Made by a program: the position numbers and the translations under genes. DNA of 64,000 bases from a virus. Shown here one piece after another: positions 15,568-27,317 of the stretch (its first letter is position 1; each line of letters opens with the position of its first letter). The notes under the pieces were generated by a model that saw only the letters and a program-made list of their open reading frames with translations, was not told where the DNA came from and made no database searches. The stretch is taken from the IMG/VR virus record IMGVR_UViG_3300035171_000016, positions 32,001 to 96,000 of that record. One strand, 5' to 3'.

Positions 15568-16200
15568 CTATTGAGCTAAGAACCAGAACCAATCTGGATG
15601 ACCTAAATGCTTAATAGTTAACGCTACAGGCATGGGAAGAGGCTCCTTATGGTTAAATAAAGGCTTTAAGCCTAACTCTTCCAAAGGTTTATTTCCACGC
15701 TTACTATTAATTTCGGCATCTACGAACATAAGATTTTCAAAAGTATCTTTTCCGCCGTGACTTTTGGCCTGCTTATGTTCAAGATTTCCTCTTTTAAAAG
15801 GAATTTTCTTGCCAGAATAGCCACATCTTCCGTCCTGCTTCTCGTAAAAGTACATTTTAGTTGGCCTAAACCTTTTTTTAGGTATTTTGCCATAATTTGT
15901 AACGATTACTGAAGGGCAACGAATTGTTAGTTTTGAAGTTCTAACTACATTATCTATTCCGACTCTTGGCTCAACCATTAACCATTCTTCAAAATCTAAA
16001 GCTTGGTAATAATCTAATTCGTTTAAATTTAATGAGCCGTCCTCATTTTTCTTATAAACGACATCAATAGCCTTTGCGGTAATAGTATAGTCGTTAGACT
16101 GGCTATTAAGCGCGACTAAAGCCTTCTTTGGTGAAAGAGTGCCGATACACTGGTAGCCTTTATTCAAGACTAATACTGATGATTTATTTAAATAGTCCAT
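15568..16200 (-). CDS. HNH endonuclease (McrA-like, VLVLN N-terminus)
   Basis: VLVLNKGYQ, CGYSG, NLEH...SHGGKDTFENL...NSKRGNK. Confidence 0.85.
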   Translation of the reverse strand: MDYLNKSSVLVLNKGYQCIGTLSPKKALVALNSQSNDYTITAKAIDVVYKKNEDGSLNLNELDYYQALDFEEWLMVEPRVGIDNVVRTSKLTIRCPSVIVTNYGKIPKKRFRPTKMYFYEKQDGRCGYSGKKIPFKRGNLEHKQAKSHGGKDTFENLMFVDAEINSKRGNKPLEELGLKPLFNHKEPLPMPVALTIKHLGHPDWFWFLAQ

Positions 16201-16440
16201 GTTATACTAGTTTCTATTTTATTTTTATTTAATTTGTCCCATTGTTTTAATGCGTAATATATTCTTTTAGTCGCGCTTCCAATTCTTTCTTTAGAAATAT
16301 CTCCGTGTGCATGAATTGTGCTTCTTAGTGCCCCGACAATAGCTTTTTCTAAACTTCCGCGTTTGTTTGTATTAAAATTAAAATTGTTCATTTATTAATA
16401 AAAAATAATAGATAAATATTAAAATGTCAAGAAATTAATT

Positions 16441-16691
16441 GAAACGCAGCCATAATCGCCGTTCTGTTTTATCTCTACATTTATCTCACTTTTCAGTGGC
16501 TAATCTTTATGATTAGCTGCTCCAACCTTTCCTTTACATCGGCCAGCACTAGCCTTTGGAACTTTAGGATTACTGCTAATTTGTGGTATTAATGAACGGG
16601 TGCAAAAGCAAGTACCGTTCTCCCAACATCTGCTATGCAGAGGCGAATTTCCTCAAATCATTTCTGACTTGCGTAGAGTCGCTTACGTTTC
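16441..16691 (-). ncRNA. rnpB: RNase P RNA (compact, about 251 nt)
   Basis: P1 GAAACGUA/UGCGUUUC. P2 CUCUAC/GUAGAG. P3 AAGUCA-GAAA-UGAUUU. CR-I GAGGAAAUUCGCC (16654-16642) pairs with CR-V ACAGAACGGCGAUUA (16467-16453) to form P4 with the bulged U. CR-IV AGAUAAAUG. P18 CACU-GAAA-AGUG. Confidence 0.88.
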
Positions 16692-17144
16692 AAAATTTAT
16701 TTTTTCTATAGTAGCGTCTGGATAAATAATTATAATTTTTTTCTTCATTTTCACAGCATACCTTTTGGTAGACCATGTTCCTGACCTAAGTTGTTCAATT
16801 TTTTCTTTAGGACAAACAATTAATAATTCAGATTCGTTAACAATATCTTTATTTCTATCTAAATACGGTTTTGACGGCAAAATTGTTTTAGCTTTACAAA
16901 AGGCTCGTTTAACCTCATTAATTGGTGGATGAATAATAATTTTTCCTAAAAATTTATTCTTATTTTGAATAAAATAAAAAACAGATAAATTATGAGCATC
17001 ATAATCAGCCCCTAAACAATCTCCATGATGAAATTCTCTACAGTCTAACGTAAACAAAAAAATAAAAAATATATTCTTTTGTTCCTGAGTCATTCCTGCC
17101 TGTGTTCCAGTAAATCCTATAACCATATAATTTATAATTTCCAA
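16683..17144 (-). CDS. SLOG superfamily (YspA/DprA-like) nucleotide-binding protein
   Basis: IGFTGTQ, HHGDCLGAD, RNKDIV and RSGTWST motifs; its stop codon lies inside P1 of the RNase P RNA. Confidence 0.75.
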   Translation of the reverse strand: MEIINYMVIGFTGTQAGMTQEQKNIFFIFLFTLDCREFHHGDCLGADYDAHNLSVFYFIQNKNKFLGKIIIHPPINEVKRAFCKAKTILPSKPYLDRNKDIVNESELLIVCPKEKIEQLRSGTWSTKRYAVKMKKKIIIIYPDATIEKINFET

Positions 17145-17560
17145 TTATCTTGATTATCCTCAAGTCTAGAATTAAACCATCCATAAAAACCAGAAGGAAA
17201 AGAGGCAAATATAATAGACATAAAAATACAAAATAATACTCTAATAGGCCACAATGCTACCCATCCAACCCACCAAGTTATAGTTTTTTTAGTCATATAA
17301 ATATGATAATATTGTTATTTTAAAAAGTCAAGATATATAAAAACAAAAAATCCATCAGAAACTAATCTGATGGATTTGATTTATTAAAAAAATTTATGAC
17401 AATTGTTTTATTACATTTGCCGCAAGATATTGTATCTGGAATAAATCCGGTAGTAGCCCATTTTTGAAAATGGCCGCATTTACATTTTAATTTAAATTGA
17501 GGAACTTGGCCGTATACACCGACCTTGCGACTTCTAATTCTTATTGCGTTTTTCATAAAA

Positions 17561-17635
17561 TGGAGGGAATGGCTGGACTTTAACCAGATTATCTTCTTTA
17601 CGAAAGAAGTGCATCAACATAAATGCTTCAAACCC
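17561..17635 (-). tRNA. tRNA-Thr(CGT), U-U mismatches in acceptor stem
   Basis: Cloverleaf; anticodon arm CTTCT-TTCGTAA-AGAAG; encoded TCCA. Confidence 0.8.
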
Positions 17636-17639
17636 GTAA

Positions 17640-17714
17640 TGGAGGGAAAGCCGGAACTTGCATCCGGTTGACAATATTACCAATATTGCGTTTTACTATA
17701 TAAACCACAATCCC
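17640..17714 (-). tRNA. tRNA-Thr(GGT), U-U mismatches in acceptor stem
   Basis: CAATA-TTGGTAA-TATTG; encoded TCCA. Confidence 0.8.
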
Positions 17715-17945
17715 ATTTAAGCTATCCAGACATCAATCTATAATTACATCCGTATTTTTCTTTAAAAACTTCGTTTTCTTTTTTACCATGAACTTTTGGC
17801 CAGCCTTGTTCTTCCCATATAATACAATACTCGCAAATACCATGAATAATAATCAAATCACGCCCGCATTCTGGACACTGATTTTTTAGATAATATTTGC
17901 GTCCAAAAGTAAAATCTTTCATATATTTAATTATGTTAGGTAACA

Positions 17946-18025
17946 TGGCGAAGTTGGCGAGAGTCGAACTCGCATAATTTCCAATTATGCACTTACTGTT
18001 TAGGAAACAGAGCCATTACAACTTC
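17946..18025 (-). tRNA. Non-canonical tRNA-Arg(CCT) with D-loop relocated 3' of the anticodon arm
   Basis: Acceptor GAAGTTG/CAACTTC; T-arm GCGAG-TTCGACT-CTCGC; anticodon loop TTCCTAA; only 7 nt before the anticodon stem; GCCA end. Confidence 0.75.
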
Positions 18026-18054
18026 AAAATTAATAATAATTAAAATAACTTCCT

Positions 18055-18336
18055 TTACCATAAATGAGAAAAATCAATCTCTCTGGTTCCAACTTGAATG
18101 CCTATGCTCCCATTTAGAGTCGAAAGATGCGTGGCCGTTAGAAAAGAAAAGAAAAGAAAAGAAAAGAAAAGAAAAGAAAAGAAAAGAAATGAACTATGAT
18201 TAGGACATTCAAAATAGAATAGGTCATTCCCACTTCTTTCTCCAGTTAAGGGGTCGAACTTGATTTCCACAGAATACTCTTTTATAATAAGAGGGCTTCT
18301 GCATTTCTCACAAAAAACATCAGATTTAGTTTTCAT
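18055..18336 (-). CDS. Small Zn-ribbon protein containing a pentanucleotide repeat tract
   Basis: CEKC...CPNH followed by (TTTTC)9. Confidence 0.5.
   Translation of the reverse strand: MKTKSDVFCEKCRSPLIIKEYSVEIKFDPLTGERSGNDLFYFECPNHSSFLFFSFLFFSFLFFSFLTATHLSTLNGSIGIQVGTREIDFSHLW
18141..18185. repeat. (GAAAA)9 simple sequence repeat
   Basis: Nine perfect tandem units. Confidence 0.95.
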
Positions 18337-18352
18337 ATTTTGTTTTATAAAA

Positions 18353-18444
18353 TGGCGGATACAGAAGGGGATGCTCCCTCACTGGCTGTTAAACCAGAAC
18401 ACTTTAGCAAAGTGCCGCGCCAAGCTGATATGCGCCTTGTATCC
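18353..18444 (-). tRNA. tRNA-Ser(GCT)
   Basis: GCACT-TTGCTAA-AGTGT; long V-arm; G73; CCA. Confidence 0.9.
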
Positions 18445-18448
18445 AAAA

Positions 18449-18533
18449 TGGTAGCCACGGGGAGATTCGGACTCCCAAACCCATCCGGTTTAAGCGGATA
18501 TGCTGTTCCAGTTCGCAATGAGGGCACGCGGCC
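18449..18533 (-). tRNA. Atypical tRNA-Leu(TAA): 8-nt insertion after position 9, no V-arm hairpin
   Basis: ATCCG-CTTAAAC-CGGAT; A73; CCA. Confidence 0.8.
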
Positions 18534-26750: not shown

Positions 26751-26827
26751 TGGCACAACGAATGGGAGTCGAACCCATCTATTACCGTTTTGGAGGCGGC
26801 GGCTTCACTCAACTTAGCTATCGTTGT
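26751..26827 (-). tRNA. tRNA-Trp(CCA)
   Basis: Anticodon loop CTCCAAA; G73. Confidence 0.9.
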
Positions 26828-26834
26828 ATTAAAT

Positions 26835-26908
26835 TGGAGCATCATAACGGTATTGAACCATTTTATCTAACTTGGCAAGCTAGGGCATTACATTTATGCT
26901 AATGATGC
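26835..26908 (-). tRNA. tRNA-Gly(GCC)
   Basis: Anticodon loop TTGCCAA; U73. Confidence 0.9.
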
Positions 26909-26910
26909 GA

Positions 26911-27060
26911 TAACTGCTTTCGCAGCCGCCATATTATCTCCGCGATAAGCTCGGAGTCCGGGTTCTGCTTTCGCATAACACCCTATGACCGATTAGTGAT
27001 TTTTTATACCATATCACCGGATTTTACTTACCGGAGGCTCACTGTTTGAGTTCTAAGCCT
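26911..27060 (-). ncRNA. Structured 5' leader of the tRNA array
   Basis: Consecutive hairpins including two GC-GAAA-GC tetraloops and GGTC-ATA-GGGT...ACCC-G-GACT. Confidence 0.5.
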
Positions 27061-27078
27061 TAAATTCTTACTTTCTAT

Positions 27079-27107
27079 ACTCTAATACCTAAAATCTGTT
27101 TTGTCAA
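27079..27107 (-). promoter_or_regulatory. Sigma70-type promoter immediately downstream of the attenuator terminator
   Basis: TTGACA-N17-TAGAGT. Confidence 0.65.
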
Positions 27108-27109
27108 AT

Positions 27110-27140
27110 AAAAAACCACCGAATCTTTTTTCGGTGGCTT
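27110..27140 (-). terminator. Intrinsic terminator of the leader attenuator
   Basis: AAGCCACCGAA-AAAAGA-TTCGGTGG followed by TTTTTT. Confidence 0.85.
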
Positions 27141-27165
27141 CCAAATTTTCTTTTATTTCTCTATT

Positions 27166-27173
27166 AAGCCACC
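27166..27173 (-). promoter_or_regulatory. Antiterminator strand
   Basis: GGTGGCTT, 1 nt after the leader stop codon, perfectly complementary to the terminator 5' arm AAGCCACC. Confidence 0.75.
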
Positions 27174-27174
27174 A

Positions 27175-27282
27175 TTACACTTTTTTATCTCCCGTCCAAT
27201 TGCGTTGAATATAATGCGACGGAGAAGTACCTTTTATGAGGCATTCTCTAAACATCGCTAAACTGGTCATATCAACTGTCAT
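27175..27282 (-). CDS. 35-aa attenuator leader peptide containing all 20 amino acids
   Basis: MTVDMTSLAMFRECLIKGTSPSHYIQRNWTGDKKV*; 30 distinct codons. Confidence 0.8.
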   Translation of the reverse strand: MTVDMTSLAMFRECLIKGTSPSHYIQRNWTGDKKV

Positions 27283-27288
27283 ATTTAT

Positions 27289-27317
27289 ACTATAGTACCA
27301 TTTTACACAAAAGTAAA
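27289..27317 (-). promoter_or_regulatory. Promoter of the leader peptide (probably leaderless mRNA)
   Basis: TTTACT-N17-TATAGT-N6-ATG; the spacer also contains GTGTAA. Confidence 0.65.

What the first reader, a model, noticed from the sequence alone, without database searches (positions are those of the whole stretch)
15568..27317. The locus behaves as a self-contained translation-rescue module
Seen: co-directional order of leader/attenuator, 33 tRNAs for all 20 amino acids (all with encoded CCA), tRNA mimics, a Pth2-like hydrolase, a SLOG protein, RNase P RNA and two HNH nucleases. Inference: sensor, replacement tRNAs, maturation ribozyme and peptidyl-tRNA recycling form one counter-defence against tRNA-destroying abortive infection.
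Basis: inference. Interest (0 to 1): 0.75.

Follow-up and report, generated by a model that had tools for sequence, protein, structure and literature searches.

The report
Phage tRNA island with own RNase P
An uncultured soil phage carries a 12-kb island with a near-complete set of 33 oddly shaped tRNA genes, its own shrunken RNase P ribozyme gene and a few translation-related proteins, but the parts form a loosely associated mosaic with several promoters rather than one inherited, co-regulated rescue module.

Summary
All features lie on the minus strand. They include 33 tRNA-like genes for all 20 amino acids, each ending in CCA. Standard tools find only 12-15 of them. There is also a 251-nt RNase P RNA, a Pth2-fold protein, a SLOG-fold protein, two HNH genes, and a 35-codon leader ORF containing all 20 amino acids, followed by competing antiterminator and terminator hairpins.

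- Against one unit: the island has at least 7 internal promoters of a class used across the genome. A strong terminator separates the tRNAs from the SLOG-RNase P unit.
- The closest relative (55-87% protein identity, syntenic) keeps the SLOG and Pth2-like genes. It has no tRNA and no RNase P RNA in the 40 kb of syntenic sequence examined.
- The HNH genes sit where the relative has a GIY-YIG gene, as expected of homing endonucleases.
- For a looser link: RNase P RNA lies inside tRNA arrays in at least four other large phage lineages. One 340-kb phage also has PTH2 and a SLOG gene in its array.

A counter-defence role is untested. This scan has already noted miniature phage RNase P RNAs in at least six other genomes. 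I found no paper describing one.

The parts
27289..27329 (-). two overlapping sigma-70-like promoter candidates ahead of the leader ORF (TTCACA-18-TAAAAT and TTTACT-17-TATAGT)
   Evidence: consensus matches only. The second would start transcription at or near the leader ATG.
27175..27282 (-). 35-codon leader ORF (MTVDMTSLAMFRECLIKGTSPSHYIQRNWTGDKKV) with all 20 amino acids in its first 29 codons
   Evidence: It is the only such case among 1135 ATG-open 29-codon stretches in the genome and there are 0 among 13,663 in 1.09 Mb of other loci. Simulated P = 9e-5.
27111..27173 (-). competing hairpins: antiterminator GGUGGCUU/AAGCCACC, starting 2 nt after the leader stop codon, and terminator CCACCGAA/UUCGGUGG plus U6; they share CCACC
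   Evidence: RNAfold -13.4 and -15.1 kcal/mol; function inferred
27079..27107 (-). promoter-like site TTGACA-17-TAGAGT directly after the terminator
   Evidence: 10 of 12 matches; if active it bypasses the attenuator
26915..27078 (-). structured untranslated stretch ahead of the first tRNA, with two GCGAAAGC hairpins
   Evidence: z = -1.9; no Rfam match
26835..26908 (-). tRNA-Gly(GCC), CCA encoded
   Evidence: 51.7 bits
26751..26827 (-). tRNA-Trp(CCA), CCA encoded
   Evidence: 46.7 bits
26560..26637 (-). tRNA-Ala(TGC), CCA encoded
   Evidence: (36.8 bits)
26245..26333 (-). aberrant tRNA-like gene with a GTA (Tyr) anticodon loop, an 8-bp acceptor stem with a bulge and no normal D arm; CCA encoded
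   Evidence: z = -2.1; no standard tool calls it
26090..26165 (-). tRNA-His(GTG), CCA encoded
25835..25911 (-). tRNA-Arg(ACG), CCA encoded
   Evidence: 57.7 bits
25751..25829 (-). tRNA-Ile(TAT), CCA encoded
   Evidence: 7/7 acceptor, 5/5 T stem; missed by ARAGORN and Rfam
25662..25746 (-). tRNA-Leu(CAA) with an enlarged D region and a short variable loop, CCA encoded
25574..25657 (-). tRNA-Leu(TAG), same unusual build, CCA encoded
25317..25393 (-). tRNA-Asp(GTC), CCA encoded
   Evidence: 33.5 bits
25120..25214 (-). tRNA-Ser(TGA), long variable arm, discriminator G, CCA encoded
   Evidence: (tRNA-Sec model, 28.6 bits)
23691..23768 (-). tRNA-Cys(GCA), CCA encoded
23655..23683 (-). promoter TTGACA-17-TATCAT
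   Evidence: (11 of 12 matches)
23331..23415 (-). tRNA-Pro(TGG) with a 12-nt variable region, CCA encoded
23228..23318 (-). tRNA with a CAT anticodon and a long variable arm, CCA encoded
23146..23220 (-). tRNA-Gly(TCC), CCA encoded
   Evidence: 54.4 bits
22882..22970 (-). tRNA with a GTT (Asn) anticodon and a long variable arm, discriminator G, CCA encoded
   Evidence: (40.7 bits)
22725..22803 (-). tRNA-Lys(TTT), CCA encoded
   Evidence: 7/7 acceptor, 4/5 T stem
22644..22717 (-). tRNA-Glu(CTC), CCA encoded
   Evidence: 43.4 bits
22561..22636 (-). tRNA-Ile(GAT), CCA encoded
   Evidence: (37.5 bits)
22526..22554 (-). promoter TTGACT-17-TATCAT
24740..24768 (-). promoter TTGACT-17-TATACT
21306..21384 (-). 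tRNA-Glu(TTC), CCA encoded
20957..21334 (-). Pth2-fold protein; the likely start is the ATG at 21286, just after tRNA-Glu
   Evidence: PF01981, 18.7 bits, cut-off 23; PDB profile hits are Pth2 only, best E = 2.6e-5; Foldseek prob 1.0, TM 0.5-0.6; model pLDDT 65
20476..20889 (-). HNH endonuclease gene whose end overlaps tRNA-Gln; probably a homing endonuclease
   Evidence: phrog_2255, 3.7e-10; no homologue in relative L073
20413..20490 (-). tRNA-Gln(TTG), CCA encoded
20329..20405 (-). tRNA-Arg(TCT), CCA encoded
   Evidence: (27.2 bits)
20168..20243 (-). tRNA-Phe(GAA), CCA encoded
20131..20159 (-). promoter TTGACT-17-TAATAT
19661..19737 (-). tRNA-Met(CAT), CCA encoded
19053..19130 (-). tRNA-Thr(TGT), CCA encoded
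   Evidence: (31.3 bits)
18969..19046 (-). tRNA-Gln(CTG), 26% G+C, CCA encoded
18883..18961 (-). tRNA-Val(TAC), CCA encoded
   Evidence: (43.3 bits)
18804..18878 (-). tRNA-Lys(CTT), CCA encoded
   Evidence: (33.6 bits)
18768..18796 (-). promoter TTGACT-17-TATACT
18449..18533 (-). tRNA-Leu(TAA), enlarged D region, CCA encoded
18353..18444 (-). tRNA-Ser(GCT), CCA encoded
17946..18025 (-). aberrant tRNA-like gene (possible Arg-CCT) with a canonical T arm, a perfect acceptor stem and CCA
   Evidence: 30.9 bits; z = -2.5
17640..17714 (-). tRNA-Thr(GGT), CCA encoded
   Evidence: 42.7 bits
17561..17635 (-). tRNA-Thr(CGT), CCA encoded; last tRNA of the array
   Evidence: (34.5 bits)
17348..17377 (-). 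strong intrinsic terminator (12-bp stem plus a T run) that closes the tRNA array
17303..17331 (-). promoter TTGACT-17-TATCAT for the 54-aa ORF, the SLOG gene and the RNase P RNA
16683..17126 (-). stand-alone SLOG-fold protein (147 aa)
   Evidence: 802 homologues; pLDDT 94.6; DprA, ShosA, ThsA-SLOG, YpsA, LOG; kept in relatives that lack tRNAs
16441..16691 (-). 251-nt RNase P RNA with a full catalytic core and a much reduced specificity domain; its 5' end overlaps the SLOG stop codon
   Evidence: RF00373, 18.3 bits; P1, P2, P3, P4, P18-GAAA; invariant GAGGAAA-TC, AGAT-AATG, ACAGAAC; all 7 P4 pairs kept; covariation in 0 of 500 shuffles
16402..16430 (-). promoter TTGACA-17-TATTTT, 11 nt after the RNase P RNA
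15568..16200 (-). HNH endonuclease gene in the slot where the relative has a GIY-YIG gene; probably a homing endonuclease
   Evidence: (phrog_16726, 3.6e-14)

Best explanation
This is an accessory 'translation-autonomy' island of an uncultured rhizosphere phage. It is a mosaic, not a single operon.

How it most likely works:
- At least seven sigma-70-type promoters of the phage's common class drive short units, each a few small ORFs followed by a block of tRNAs. Inside the array there is no strong terminator, so transcripts probably run on until the terminator at 17348-17377.
- The 33 tRNAs form an almost complete decoding set. They already carry CCA and need no CCA-adding enzyme. Their T and D loops depart strongly from the usual pattern.
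- The next unit encodes a SLOG protein and a 251-nt RNase P RNA. This RNA keeps the catalytic core but has lost most of the domain that reads the tRNA elbow. It most likely adds or adapts 5'-end trimming capacity for the burst of phage pre-tRNAs, using the host's RnpA protein or none.
- The Pth2-fold protein may free tRNAs from stalled peptidyl-tRNA. Its activity is inferred.
- The SLOG protein is a separately inherited nucleotide-binding accessory gene.
- The HNH genes are selfish homing endonucleases.
- The leader ORF with its competing hairpins may raise read-through into the first tRNA block when any charged tRNA is scarce. This too is inferred.

The benefit is continued translation when the host tRNA pool is unsuitable or destroyed. 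The data cannot say which of host shut-off, tRNA-targeting defence or codon mismatch drives this.
For: - Complete set: 33 CCA-ending tRNA-like genes, all on one strand.
- The set includes C34 isoacceptors for codons the phage rarely uses, so it is a complete set rather than a top-up.
- The RNase P RNA is real: conserved core motifs, and a P4 helix with the bulged U and compensatory changes.
- RNase P RNA lies inside same-strand tRNA arrays in G001, G002/G005, G003 and G004. A terminase gene sits on the same contig in G003 and G004.
- None of these phages encodes RnpA.
- The phage has no CCA-adding enzyme, RtcB or Rnl-type ligase, which points to replacement rather than repair.
- Promoter motif: 25 copies against 1.5 expected, 7 of them in the island. 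One strong terminator follows the last tRNA.
- Mosaic nature: the relative keeps the SLOG and Pth2-like genes without tRNAs or RNase P RNA, and has a GIY-YIG gene in the HNH slot.
- Non-canonical elbows: a TTCRANN T loop in 7 of 33 tRNAs here against 56 of 70 in other phage arrays; GG in the D loop in 12 of 33 against 64 of 70.
- The assembly is sound: identical pieces appear in two further studies, and contigs bridge the island and its flanks.
Against: - No expression, processing or aminoacylation data exist.
- The RNase P RNA scores far below Rfam's thresholds and has no close homologue, so activity is inferred from motifs.
- Seven tRNAs rest on my own scan or on manual folding only.
- The G003 island shows that PTH2 and SLOG genes can cluster with tRNAs and RNase P RNA. 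Calling them 'separately inherited' may therefore understate a real functional link.
- The rest of the relative's 178-kb scaffold was not examined and could hold tRNAs elsewhere.
Confidence: 0.6

Rival explanations
1. One reading: one integrated counter-defence module against tRNA-destroying abortive infection. The leader senses tRNA loss, the array replaces the tRNAs, RNase P RNA matures them, and Pth2 recycles peptidyl-tRNA stuck on cleaved tRNAs.
For: - The leader has attenuator geometry with every amino acid represented.
- The tRNA set is complete and has altered loops.
- G003 repeats the combination of tRNA array, RNase P RNA, PTH2 and SLOG.
- Published work shows that phage tRNAs can evade tRNA-targeting defences (PMC10264068, PMC11555353). 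Iyer et al. predicted that phage PTH2 acts in ribosome rescue after tRNA cleavage (PMC7824862).
Against: - The parts are not co-conserved in the nearest relative.
- There are at least 7 internal promoters, a terminator before the SLOG-RNase P unit, and a promoter-like site after the attenuator.
- The Pth2-like subfamily mostly occurs without tRNAs.
- The GKGK lysine motif of Pth2 is not aligned in this subfamily.
- The host and its defences are unknown.
- No pangram leader was seen at the other arrays examined.
Confidence: 0.2
2. Supply only, with no link to defence. An AT-rich phage (30% G+C) brings a full tRNA set and extra RNase P capacity to match its codon usage, to survive its own shut-off of the host, or to widen its host range. 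The proteins in the island are unrelated passengers.
For: - Codon usage is strongly AT-biased.
- The island is an indel relative to the nearest relative, as expected of an optional accessory region.
- Large tRNA arrays are common in big phages.
- The promoters are of the general class, not island-specific.
Against: - The set also serves rare NNG codons, so it is more than codon compensation.
- The strongly altered elbows and the shrunken RNase P RNA are not explained by supply alone.
- PTH2 and SLOG genes recur in G003's array.
Confidence: 0.17
3. Artefact or decay: a chimeric assembly, or a graveyard of degenerate tRNA pseudogenes with a dead RNase P relic.
For: - Most of the tRNAs score poorly with standard tools.
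- The RNase P RNA scores 18 bits against a gathering score of 84.
Against: - Independent contigs cover the island and both flanks, and identical pieces occur in two other studies.
- Acceptor, T and anticodon stems are intact in nearly all 33 genes and CCA is present in all 33. Their G+C is well above the genome's.
- All 7 P4 pairs are kept through a compensatory U-A pair.
Confidence: 0.03

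Closest known systems
tRNA arrays of large phages with interspersed small ORFs and homing endonucleases (T4 and T5 tRNA regions and many jumbo phages: my own knowledge; phage tRNAs as a defence-evasion device: PMC10264068, PMC11555353)
   Same: Many co-directional tRNA genes lie between small ORFs in the early or replication region. HNH or GIY-YIG genes are inserted among them. The region is optional between relatives.
   Different: The set here is nearly complete (33 genes, 20 amino acids) and every gene ends in CCA. Most T and D loops are non-canonical, so standard tools miss about half. The array is followed by an RNase P RNA gene and preceded by an attenuator-like leader.
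Phage-encoded RNase P RNAs inside tRNA arrays in IMG/VR contigs found here: 3300036772_000425 (G003, 340 kb), 3300010401_000033 (G004), 3300050821_001858 (G001), and 3300044470_000379 with 3300044823_000365 (G002/G005)
   Same: An RNase P RNA on the same strand as a large tRNA array in a phage genome, with no RnpA gene. In three of the four lineages nearly all tRNAs carry CCA. G003 also has PTH2 and a SLOG gene in its array.
   Different: Those RNAs are 286-367 nt, score 168-255 bits against RF00010 and lie within or directly against the tRNA blocks (within a few nt of a tRNA in three of the four lineages). Their tRNAs are canonical. The window's RNA is 251 nt and scores below every Rfam threshold. 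It lacks the GUGAAA module of the specificity domain and lies about 870 nt after the last tRNA, in a separate unit behind a terminator.
Bacterial class A RNase P RNA (Rfam RF00010; E. coli M1 RNA) and reduced forms (Mycoplasma fermentans, Thermoproteaceae type T, diverged CPR forms: PMC8172020)
   Same: P1-P4 with the bulged U, GAGGAAA, AGAUAAAUG (J18/2), ACAGAAC and a GAAA-capped P18.
   Different: Phage-borne and only 251 nt. The third P4 pair is U-A where the other ten aligned RNAs have G-C or C-G. Most of the specificity domain is missing.
Translation and RNA-repair gene sets of jumbo phages (Iyer et al. 2021, PMC7824862)
   Same: PTH2-type hydrolase and SLOG (YAcAr) genes in large phages. 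PTH2 was predicted to act in ribosome rescue after tRNA cleavage.
   Different: That survey does not mention RNase P (0 occurrences). The proteins here are divergent, below Pfam cut-offs, and the phage is 148 kb.
Leader-peptide transcription attenuators of amino-acid operons (trp, his, thr, pheA: my own knowledge)
   Same: A short ORF is followed at once by mutually exclusive antiterminator and terminator hairpins. A ribosome at the stop codon would mask the antiterminator.
   Different: There is no run of one regulatory codon. Instead all 20 amino acids appear, nearly all once. The downstream genes are tRNAs, not biosynthetic genes. There are only two hairpins, no conservation is available, and a promoter-like site follows the terminator.

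Membership tests
RNase P RNA (Rfam clan CL00002; bacterial class A-like) | P4 pseudoknot helix with a bulged U joining the GAGGAAAnUC and ACAGAAC regions | tested here: met
   7 of 7 pairs are kept in the window's RNA. Over 11 RNAs, 98.7% of cells are paired, 4 of 7 pairs show compensatory changes, 0 of 500 shuffles reach this, and slid controls reach at most 51%.
RNase P RNA (Rfam clan CL00002; bacterial class A-like) | Conserved core sequence blocks (CR-I GAGGAAA, J18/2 AGAUNAAUG, CR-V ACAGAAC..UUA) in the right order, with P1, P2 and P3 | tested here: met
   (these columns are invariant in the 11-sequence alignment)
RNase P RNA (Rfam clan CL00002; bacterial class A-like) | Reaches a curated Rfam gathering score | tested here: not met
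   RF00373 scores 18.3 bits against 84; RF00010 gives no match at E <= 0.1
RNase P RNA (Rfam clan CL00002; bacterial class A-like) | Specificity domain (P7-P14 with the CR-II/CR-III modules that read the tRNA elbow) | tested here: not met
   about 60 nt where the other phage RNAs have 100-170 nt, and the GUGAAA block is absent
RNase P RNA (Rfam clan CL00002; bacterial class A-like) | Cleaves pre-tRNA 5' leaders | not testable with these tools
   needs an in vitro assay
tRNA (RF00005) | Cloverleaf with a 7-bp acceptor stem, a 5-bp T stem with a 7-nt loop, and an anticodon stem-loop | tested here: met
   31 of 33 fit. Two (17946-18025 and 26245-26333) are aberrant.
tRNA (RF00005) | Reaches the Rfam gathering score or the ARAGORN default | tested here: inconclusive
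   15 of 33 reach at least 29 bits; 12 of 33 are found by ARAGORN default
tRNA (RF00005) | Canonical elbow (T loop TTCRANN; GG in the D loop) | tested here: not met
   7 of 33 and 12 of 33, against 56 of 70 and 64 of 70 in other phage arrays
Peptidyl-tRNA hydrolase 2 (PF01981) | Sequence membership at Pfam's cut-off | tested here: not met
   18.7 bits against 23. A profile of 12 homologues hits only Pth2 chains in the PDB, best E = 2.6e-5.
Peptidyl-tRNA hydrolase 2 (PF01981) | Pth2 fold | tested here: met
   the top 14 Foldseek hits are all Pth2 or Bit1 (prob 0.91-1.0, TM 0.45-0.63). The model is only moderate (pLDDT 65).
Peptidyl-tRNA hydrolase 2 (PF01981) | Catalytic residues (the Lys of the GKGK loop and the Asp of the DAG motif, as I recall them from Sulfolobus Pth2) | tested here: inconclusive
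   the GK pair is an insertion in the PDB chain relative to this family. An invariant Glu in VTES may stand in for the Asp.
SLOG superfamily | SLOG Rossmann-like fold | tested here: met
   pLDDT 94.6; hits to DprA, ShosA, ThsA-SLOG, YpsA, LOG and the Moco carrier protein, prob 1.0
SLOG superfamily | Membership of a named Pfam SLOG family (YAcAr, LDcluster4) | tested here: not met
   no hit for this protein; 1 of 26 homologues matches at E = 0.0065
HNH homing endonuclease | HNH motif or family match | tested here: met
   phrog_16726 at 3.6e-14 and phrog_2255 at 3.7e-10. Pfam HNH scores 18.9 against 21.4 for the first.
HNH homing endonuclease | Presence or absence varies between close relatives at the same site | tested here: met
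   no homologue of either gene in L073; a GIY-YIG gene occupies the corresponding slot
Ribosome-mediated transcription attenuator | Leader ORF followed by mutually exclusive antiterminator and terminator hairpins | tested here: met
Ribosome-mediated transcription attenuator | Conservation in relatives and a regulatory response | not testable with these tools
   no relative carries the island, and no similar leader was found at the other arrays
Single co-regulated, co-inherited module (operon) | One promoter and terminator unit | tested here: not met
   7 internal promoters and a terminator between the tRNA array and the SLOG-RNase P unit
Single co-regulated, co-inherited module (operon) | Components kept together in relatives | tested here: not met
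   (nearest relative). The combination recurs only at superfamily level, in G003.

The most novel reading that the evidence does not exclude
The phage runs a partly orthogonal tRNA system with three linked parts.
- tRNAs whose elbows (T and D loops) have been rewritten, so that host factors which read canonical tRNAs, such as nucleases or modification enzymes, treat them differently.
- A co-evolved RNase P RNA that has shed the elbow-reading domain and can therefore still mature them.
- An 'all-amino-acid' leader-peptide attenuator that raises transcription of the array whenever any charged tRNA runs short.
Probability: 0.15. Interest if true: 0.9.

Novelty: new variant of a known kind. Interest (0 to 1): 0.6.

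Why it matters
Phage tRNA arrays are well known, and their role in escaping tRNA-targeting immunity is an active question. This locus adds three things that can be tested at the bench.
- A virus-borne RNase P ribozyme. I found no published description in seven literature searches, but it recurs in several phage lineages here and in earlier notes of this scan.
- An extreme case in which a miniaturised ribozyme goes with tRNAs whose elbows are non-canonical. This hints at co-adaptation of enzyme and substrate.
- A candidate attenuator whose leader samples all 20 amino acids. That would be a new way to sense global tRNA charging.

The locus also shows that standard annotation misses more than half of such tRNAs and misses the ribozyme entirely.

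The 'single module' idea should be toned down. The parts are linked statistically and perhaps functionally, but not as one inherited, co-regulated unit.

Tried and rejected
Searches that found no close relatives:
- Megablast of the locus against GenBank phages: no match. The helicase protein reaches at most 28% identity to cultured phages.
- Single-protein locus searches in IMG/VR with the SLOG protein, the methyltransferase and the helicase: no relatives.

RNase P pattern searches:
- The core pattern with a 160-190 nt gap gave 53 matches in IMG/VR, all chance matches in coding DNA.
- A metagenome pattern scan gave 11 small RNase P RNAs with no tRNA array nearby. None is a close homologue.

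Relative and other phage records:
- Whole-record search of the relative's scaffold was not possible because it is not held. I walked 40 kb of it instead.
- The window's SLOG and Pth2-like proteins have no sequence-level match in G001-G005. They also show no detectable similarity to G003's YAcAr and PTH2.

Genes not found in the phage:
- No RnpA, CCA-adding enzyme, RtcB or Rnl-type ligase.

Sequencing runs:
- No RNA holder is listed. Laid contigs were DNA only, so nothing can be said on transcripts.

Leads that did not hold:
- Earlier notes of this scan describe 'start-less Pth2 plus tRNA-mimic' cassettes. This does not apply here: a plausible ATG exists, and this Pth2-like subfamily has no tRNA-like neighbours in 17 of 20 loci.
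- The 'circularly permuted tRNA mimic' at 26176-26240 is rejected as unsupported (z = -0.88).

Literature:
- Seven searches found no description of a phage-encoded RNase P RNA. This covers the held library only.

Full report
**What the sequence is.** The window is bases 32001-96000 of a 147,760-bp linear IMG/VR phage record, estimated 95% complete. It has about 30% G+C. It encodes a DnaB-like helicase, a UvsX-like recombinase, a clamp loader and ribonucleotide reductase, and a large terminase elsewhere on the contig. It has no close cultured relative. It comes from rhizosphere metagenomes. Identical fragments occur in runs of two further studies, and independent contigs join the island to both flanks, so it is not an assembly chimera.

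**Checking the observation: tRNAs.**
- ARAGORN with default settings finds 12 tRNAs, all on the minus strand between 17.6 and 26.9 kb. A relaxed threshold gives 22. Fifteen reach Rfam's gathering score in one of two searches.
- I wrote a scan that asks only for NCCA preceded by a 7-bp acceptor stem and a 5-bp T stem with a 7-nt loop. In its strict form it gives 22 hits on the minus strand, all inside the island. It gives none on the plus strand of the whole window and none in about 100 kb of related loci.
- Adding anticodon arms gives 33 tRNA-like genes with 32 different anticodons, covering all 20 amino acids. All end in an encoded CCA.
- Two are aberrant: a possible Arg-CCT at 17946-18025 and a Tyr-GTA-like gene at 26245-26333. 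Both fold better than shuffled sequence (z = -2.5 and -2.1).
- A third proposed 'mimic' at 26176-26240 does not (z = -0.88).
- The tRNAs are unusual. Only 7 of 33 have a TTCRANN T loop and 12 of 33 have GG in the D loop, against 56 of 70 and 64 of 70 in other phage arrays. This explains why standard tools miss them.

**Checking the observation: RNase P RNA.**
- The element at 16441-16691 scores only 18.3 bits against the archaeal RNase P model and nothing against RF00010.
- It nevertheless has P1, P2, P3, GAGGAAAUUC, a GAAA-capped P18, AGAUAAAUG, and ACAGAAC followed by GGCGAUUA.
- I aligned it with four phage RNase P RNAs and six small metagenomic ones. These blocks are invariant.
- The P4 pseudoknot pairs in 98.7% of cells. 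Four of seven pairs show compensatory changes, no shuffle out of 500 reaches this, and slid controls reach at most 51%.
- The window's RNA keeps all seven pairs and the bulged U. It has a U-A at a position where the others have G-C or C-G.
- It lacks the GUGAAA module of the specificity domain.

**Checking the observation: proteins and leader.**
- The Pth2-like protein scores below Pfam's cut-off. A family profile hits only Pth2 chains in the PDB, and a moderate model (pLDDT 65) matches only Pth2 or Bit1 folds. The catalytic lysine loop is not aligned, so activity is open.
- The 147-aa protein beside the ribozyme has 802 homologues and a confident SLOG fold.
- Both HNH genes match phage HNH families.
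- Upstream of the first tRNA, a 35-codon ORF contains all 20 amino acids within 29 codons. This is true of 1 of 1135 comparable open stretches in this genome and 0 of 13,663 in other loci. The simulated P is 9e-5.
- Two nucleotides after its stop codon begins a hairpin (GGUGGCUU/AAGCCACC) that competes with a terminator (CCACCGAA/UUCGGUGG plus U6).

**Is it one module? Regulation.**
- The motif TTGACW-N17-TAWNNT occurs 25 times in the window against 1.5 expected, and 22 copies are on the gene strand. It is therefore a real promoter class used across the early region.
- Seven copies lie inside the finding, typically just after a tRNA block and before the next small ORFs.
- The only strong intrinsic terminator (17348-17377) lies after the last tRNA. 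It is followed by a promoter for the 54-aa ORF, the SLOG gene and the ribozyme.
- Another promoter-like site follows the attenuator.
- The tRNA array may be read through as a long transcript with internal promoters. The SLOG-RNase P unit, however, is separate, and the leader cannot be the only gate.

**Is it one module? Conservation.**
- The best relative is a 178-kb ENA scaffold. It is syntenic, with 55-87% protein identity from the helicase to PhoH.
- There the methyltransferase is followed directly by the SLOG gene. The Pth2-like gene lies 4 kb further on, and a GIY-YIG gene sits where this phage has an HNH gene.
- In the 40 kb examined there is no tRNA by any method and no RNase P motif.
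- Of 20 loci encoding this Pth2-like subfamily, only three have tRNAs within reach.

**What speaks for a looser functional link.**
- A pattern for the 3' core of RNase P RNA found class A RNase P RNAs (168-255 bits) in IMG/VR contigs of 100-340 kb. Each lies on the strand of, and inside, a large tRNA array: G001 with 32 tRNAs, G002/G005 with 15 and 24, G003 with 58, and G004 with 12 plus a tmRNA.
- G003 and G004 carry a terminase gene on the same contig. None encodes RnpA.
- In G001, G004 and G005 nearly all tRNAs carry CCA. G003's mostly lack it, and G003 encodes a CCA-adding enzyme.
- In G003 the array also holds a bona fide PTH2 (97 bits), a NADAR gene, a YAcAr SLOG gene, an RF-1-like gene and an RNA-ligase-like gene. 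These are unrelated in sequence to the window's proteins.
- The combination has thus arisen at least twice at the level of protein superfamilies.
- Earlier notes of this scan report miniature phage RNase P RNAs in at least six other genomes, and SLOG and PTH2 genes near each other in unrelated phages. These are leads, not evidence, but they agree with what I found independently.

**Mechanism.**
- Shown: the features exist, the ribozyme core is intact, the tRNA set is complete and includes C34 isoacceptors for rarely used codons, and the phage has no tRNA-repair ligases.
- Inferred: the tRNAs are charged and used; the ribozyme trims them with host RnpA or alone; the reduced specificity domain fits substrates with altered elbows; the leader senses charging; the Pth2-like protein recycles peptidyl-tRNA.
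- Not distinguishable here: whether the driver is tRNA-targeting defence, the phage's own host shut-off, or codon mismatch.

**Comparison with what is known.**
- Phage tRNA arrays, homing endonucleases within them, phage PTH2 and SLOG genes, and defence evasion by phage tRNAs are all described (PMC7824862, PMC10264068, PMC11555353).
- A phage-borne RNase P RNA was not found in seven literature searches. The jumbo-phage survey does not mention RNase P.
- Reduced RNase P RNAs are known from Mycoplasma fermentans, Thermoproteaceae and CPR bacteria (PMC8172020).

**Verdict.** This is a new variant of a known kind. Interest is 0.6, driven by the ribozyme, the odd tRNAs and the leader rather than by the 'module' as such.

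Noticed in passing
window 18449-18533, 25574-25657, 25662-25746: All three tRNA-Leu genes lack a long variable arm and instead have an enlarged region between the acceptor stem and the D arm. In two of them its first bases can pair with the short variable region.
   Followed up: partly
window 22882-22970 and 23228-23318: Two tRNAs with long variable arms carry GTT (Asn) and CAT anticodons. Bacterial long-arm tRNAs are normally Leu, Ser or Tyr. The GTT one has discriminator G and G2-C71, as tRNA-Ser does, so its amino-acid identity is unclear.
   Followed up: no
window 26915-27078: A structured stretch of about 165 nt lies between the attenuator and the first tRNA. It has two GCGAAAGC hairpins and no Rfam match.
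   Followed up: partly
L109 (G003:C1:84000-102000): The tRNA array of a 340-kb phage holds PTH2, NADAR, YAcAr SLOG, RF-1-like and RNA-ligase-like genes together with an RNase P RNA that sits within a few nt of tRNAs on both sides.
   Followed up: partly
L109-L112 and G003:C1:222153-222524: Among phages carrying RNase P RNA, those without a CCA-adding enzyme encode CCA in nearly all tRNAs. The one with such an enzyme (G003) mostly omits it.
   Followed up: partly
L075 13407-13821: A more distant relative (SLOG protein 59% identical) has a tmRNA-like element about 3 kb downstream of its SLOG gene (38 bits, E = 7.7e-12, below the gathering score). ARAGORN does not call it.
   Followed up: no
L098, L100, L108 (ERZ contigs of 47-90 kb) and L102/L107: These carry small RNase P RNAs of about 260 nt with no tRNA nearby. 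It was not determined whether the contigs are phage or small-genome bacteria. The window's RNA shares a UAAUACCAC-like block with some small metagenomic RNAs (L099, L104).
   Followed up: no
genome G000:C1:91-165 (outside the window): One further tRNA gene (41.7 bits) lies at the far left end of the phage record, away from the island.
   Followed up: no
window 16993 / 24251: A contig in a second rhizosphere run joins sequence like the SLOG gene to sequence like the ORF at 24250, with 12 other letters between. This suggests a related phage with a different arrangement of the island.
   Followed up: no
window 42109-43380 (+), 44631-45563 (-): Further GIY-YIG or HNH-type homing endonuclease genes lie in the replication region, so this genome is heavily colonised by such elements.
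   Followed up: no
window 17362-17556 and 17722-17946: Two small ORFs between tRNA blocks encode CxxC...CxxC zinc-ribbon-like proteins with no family match.
   Followed up: no
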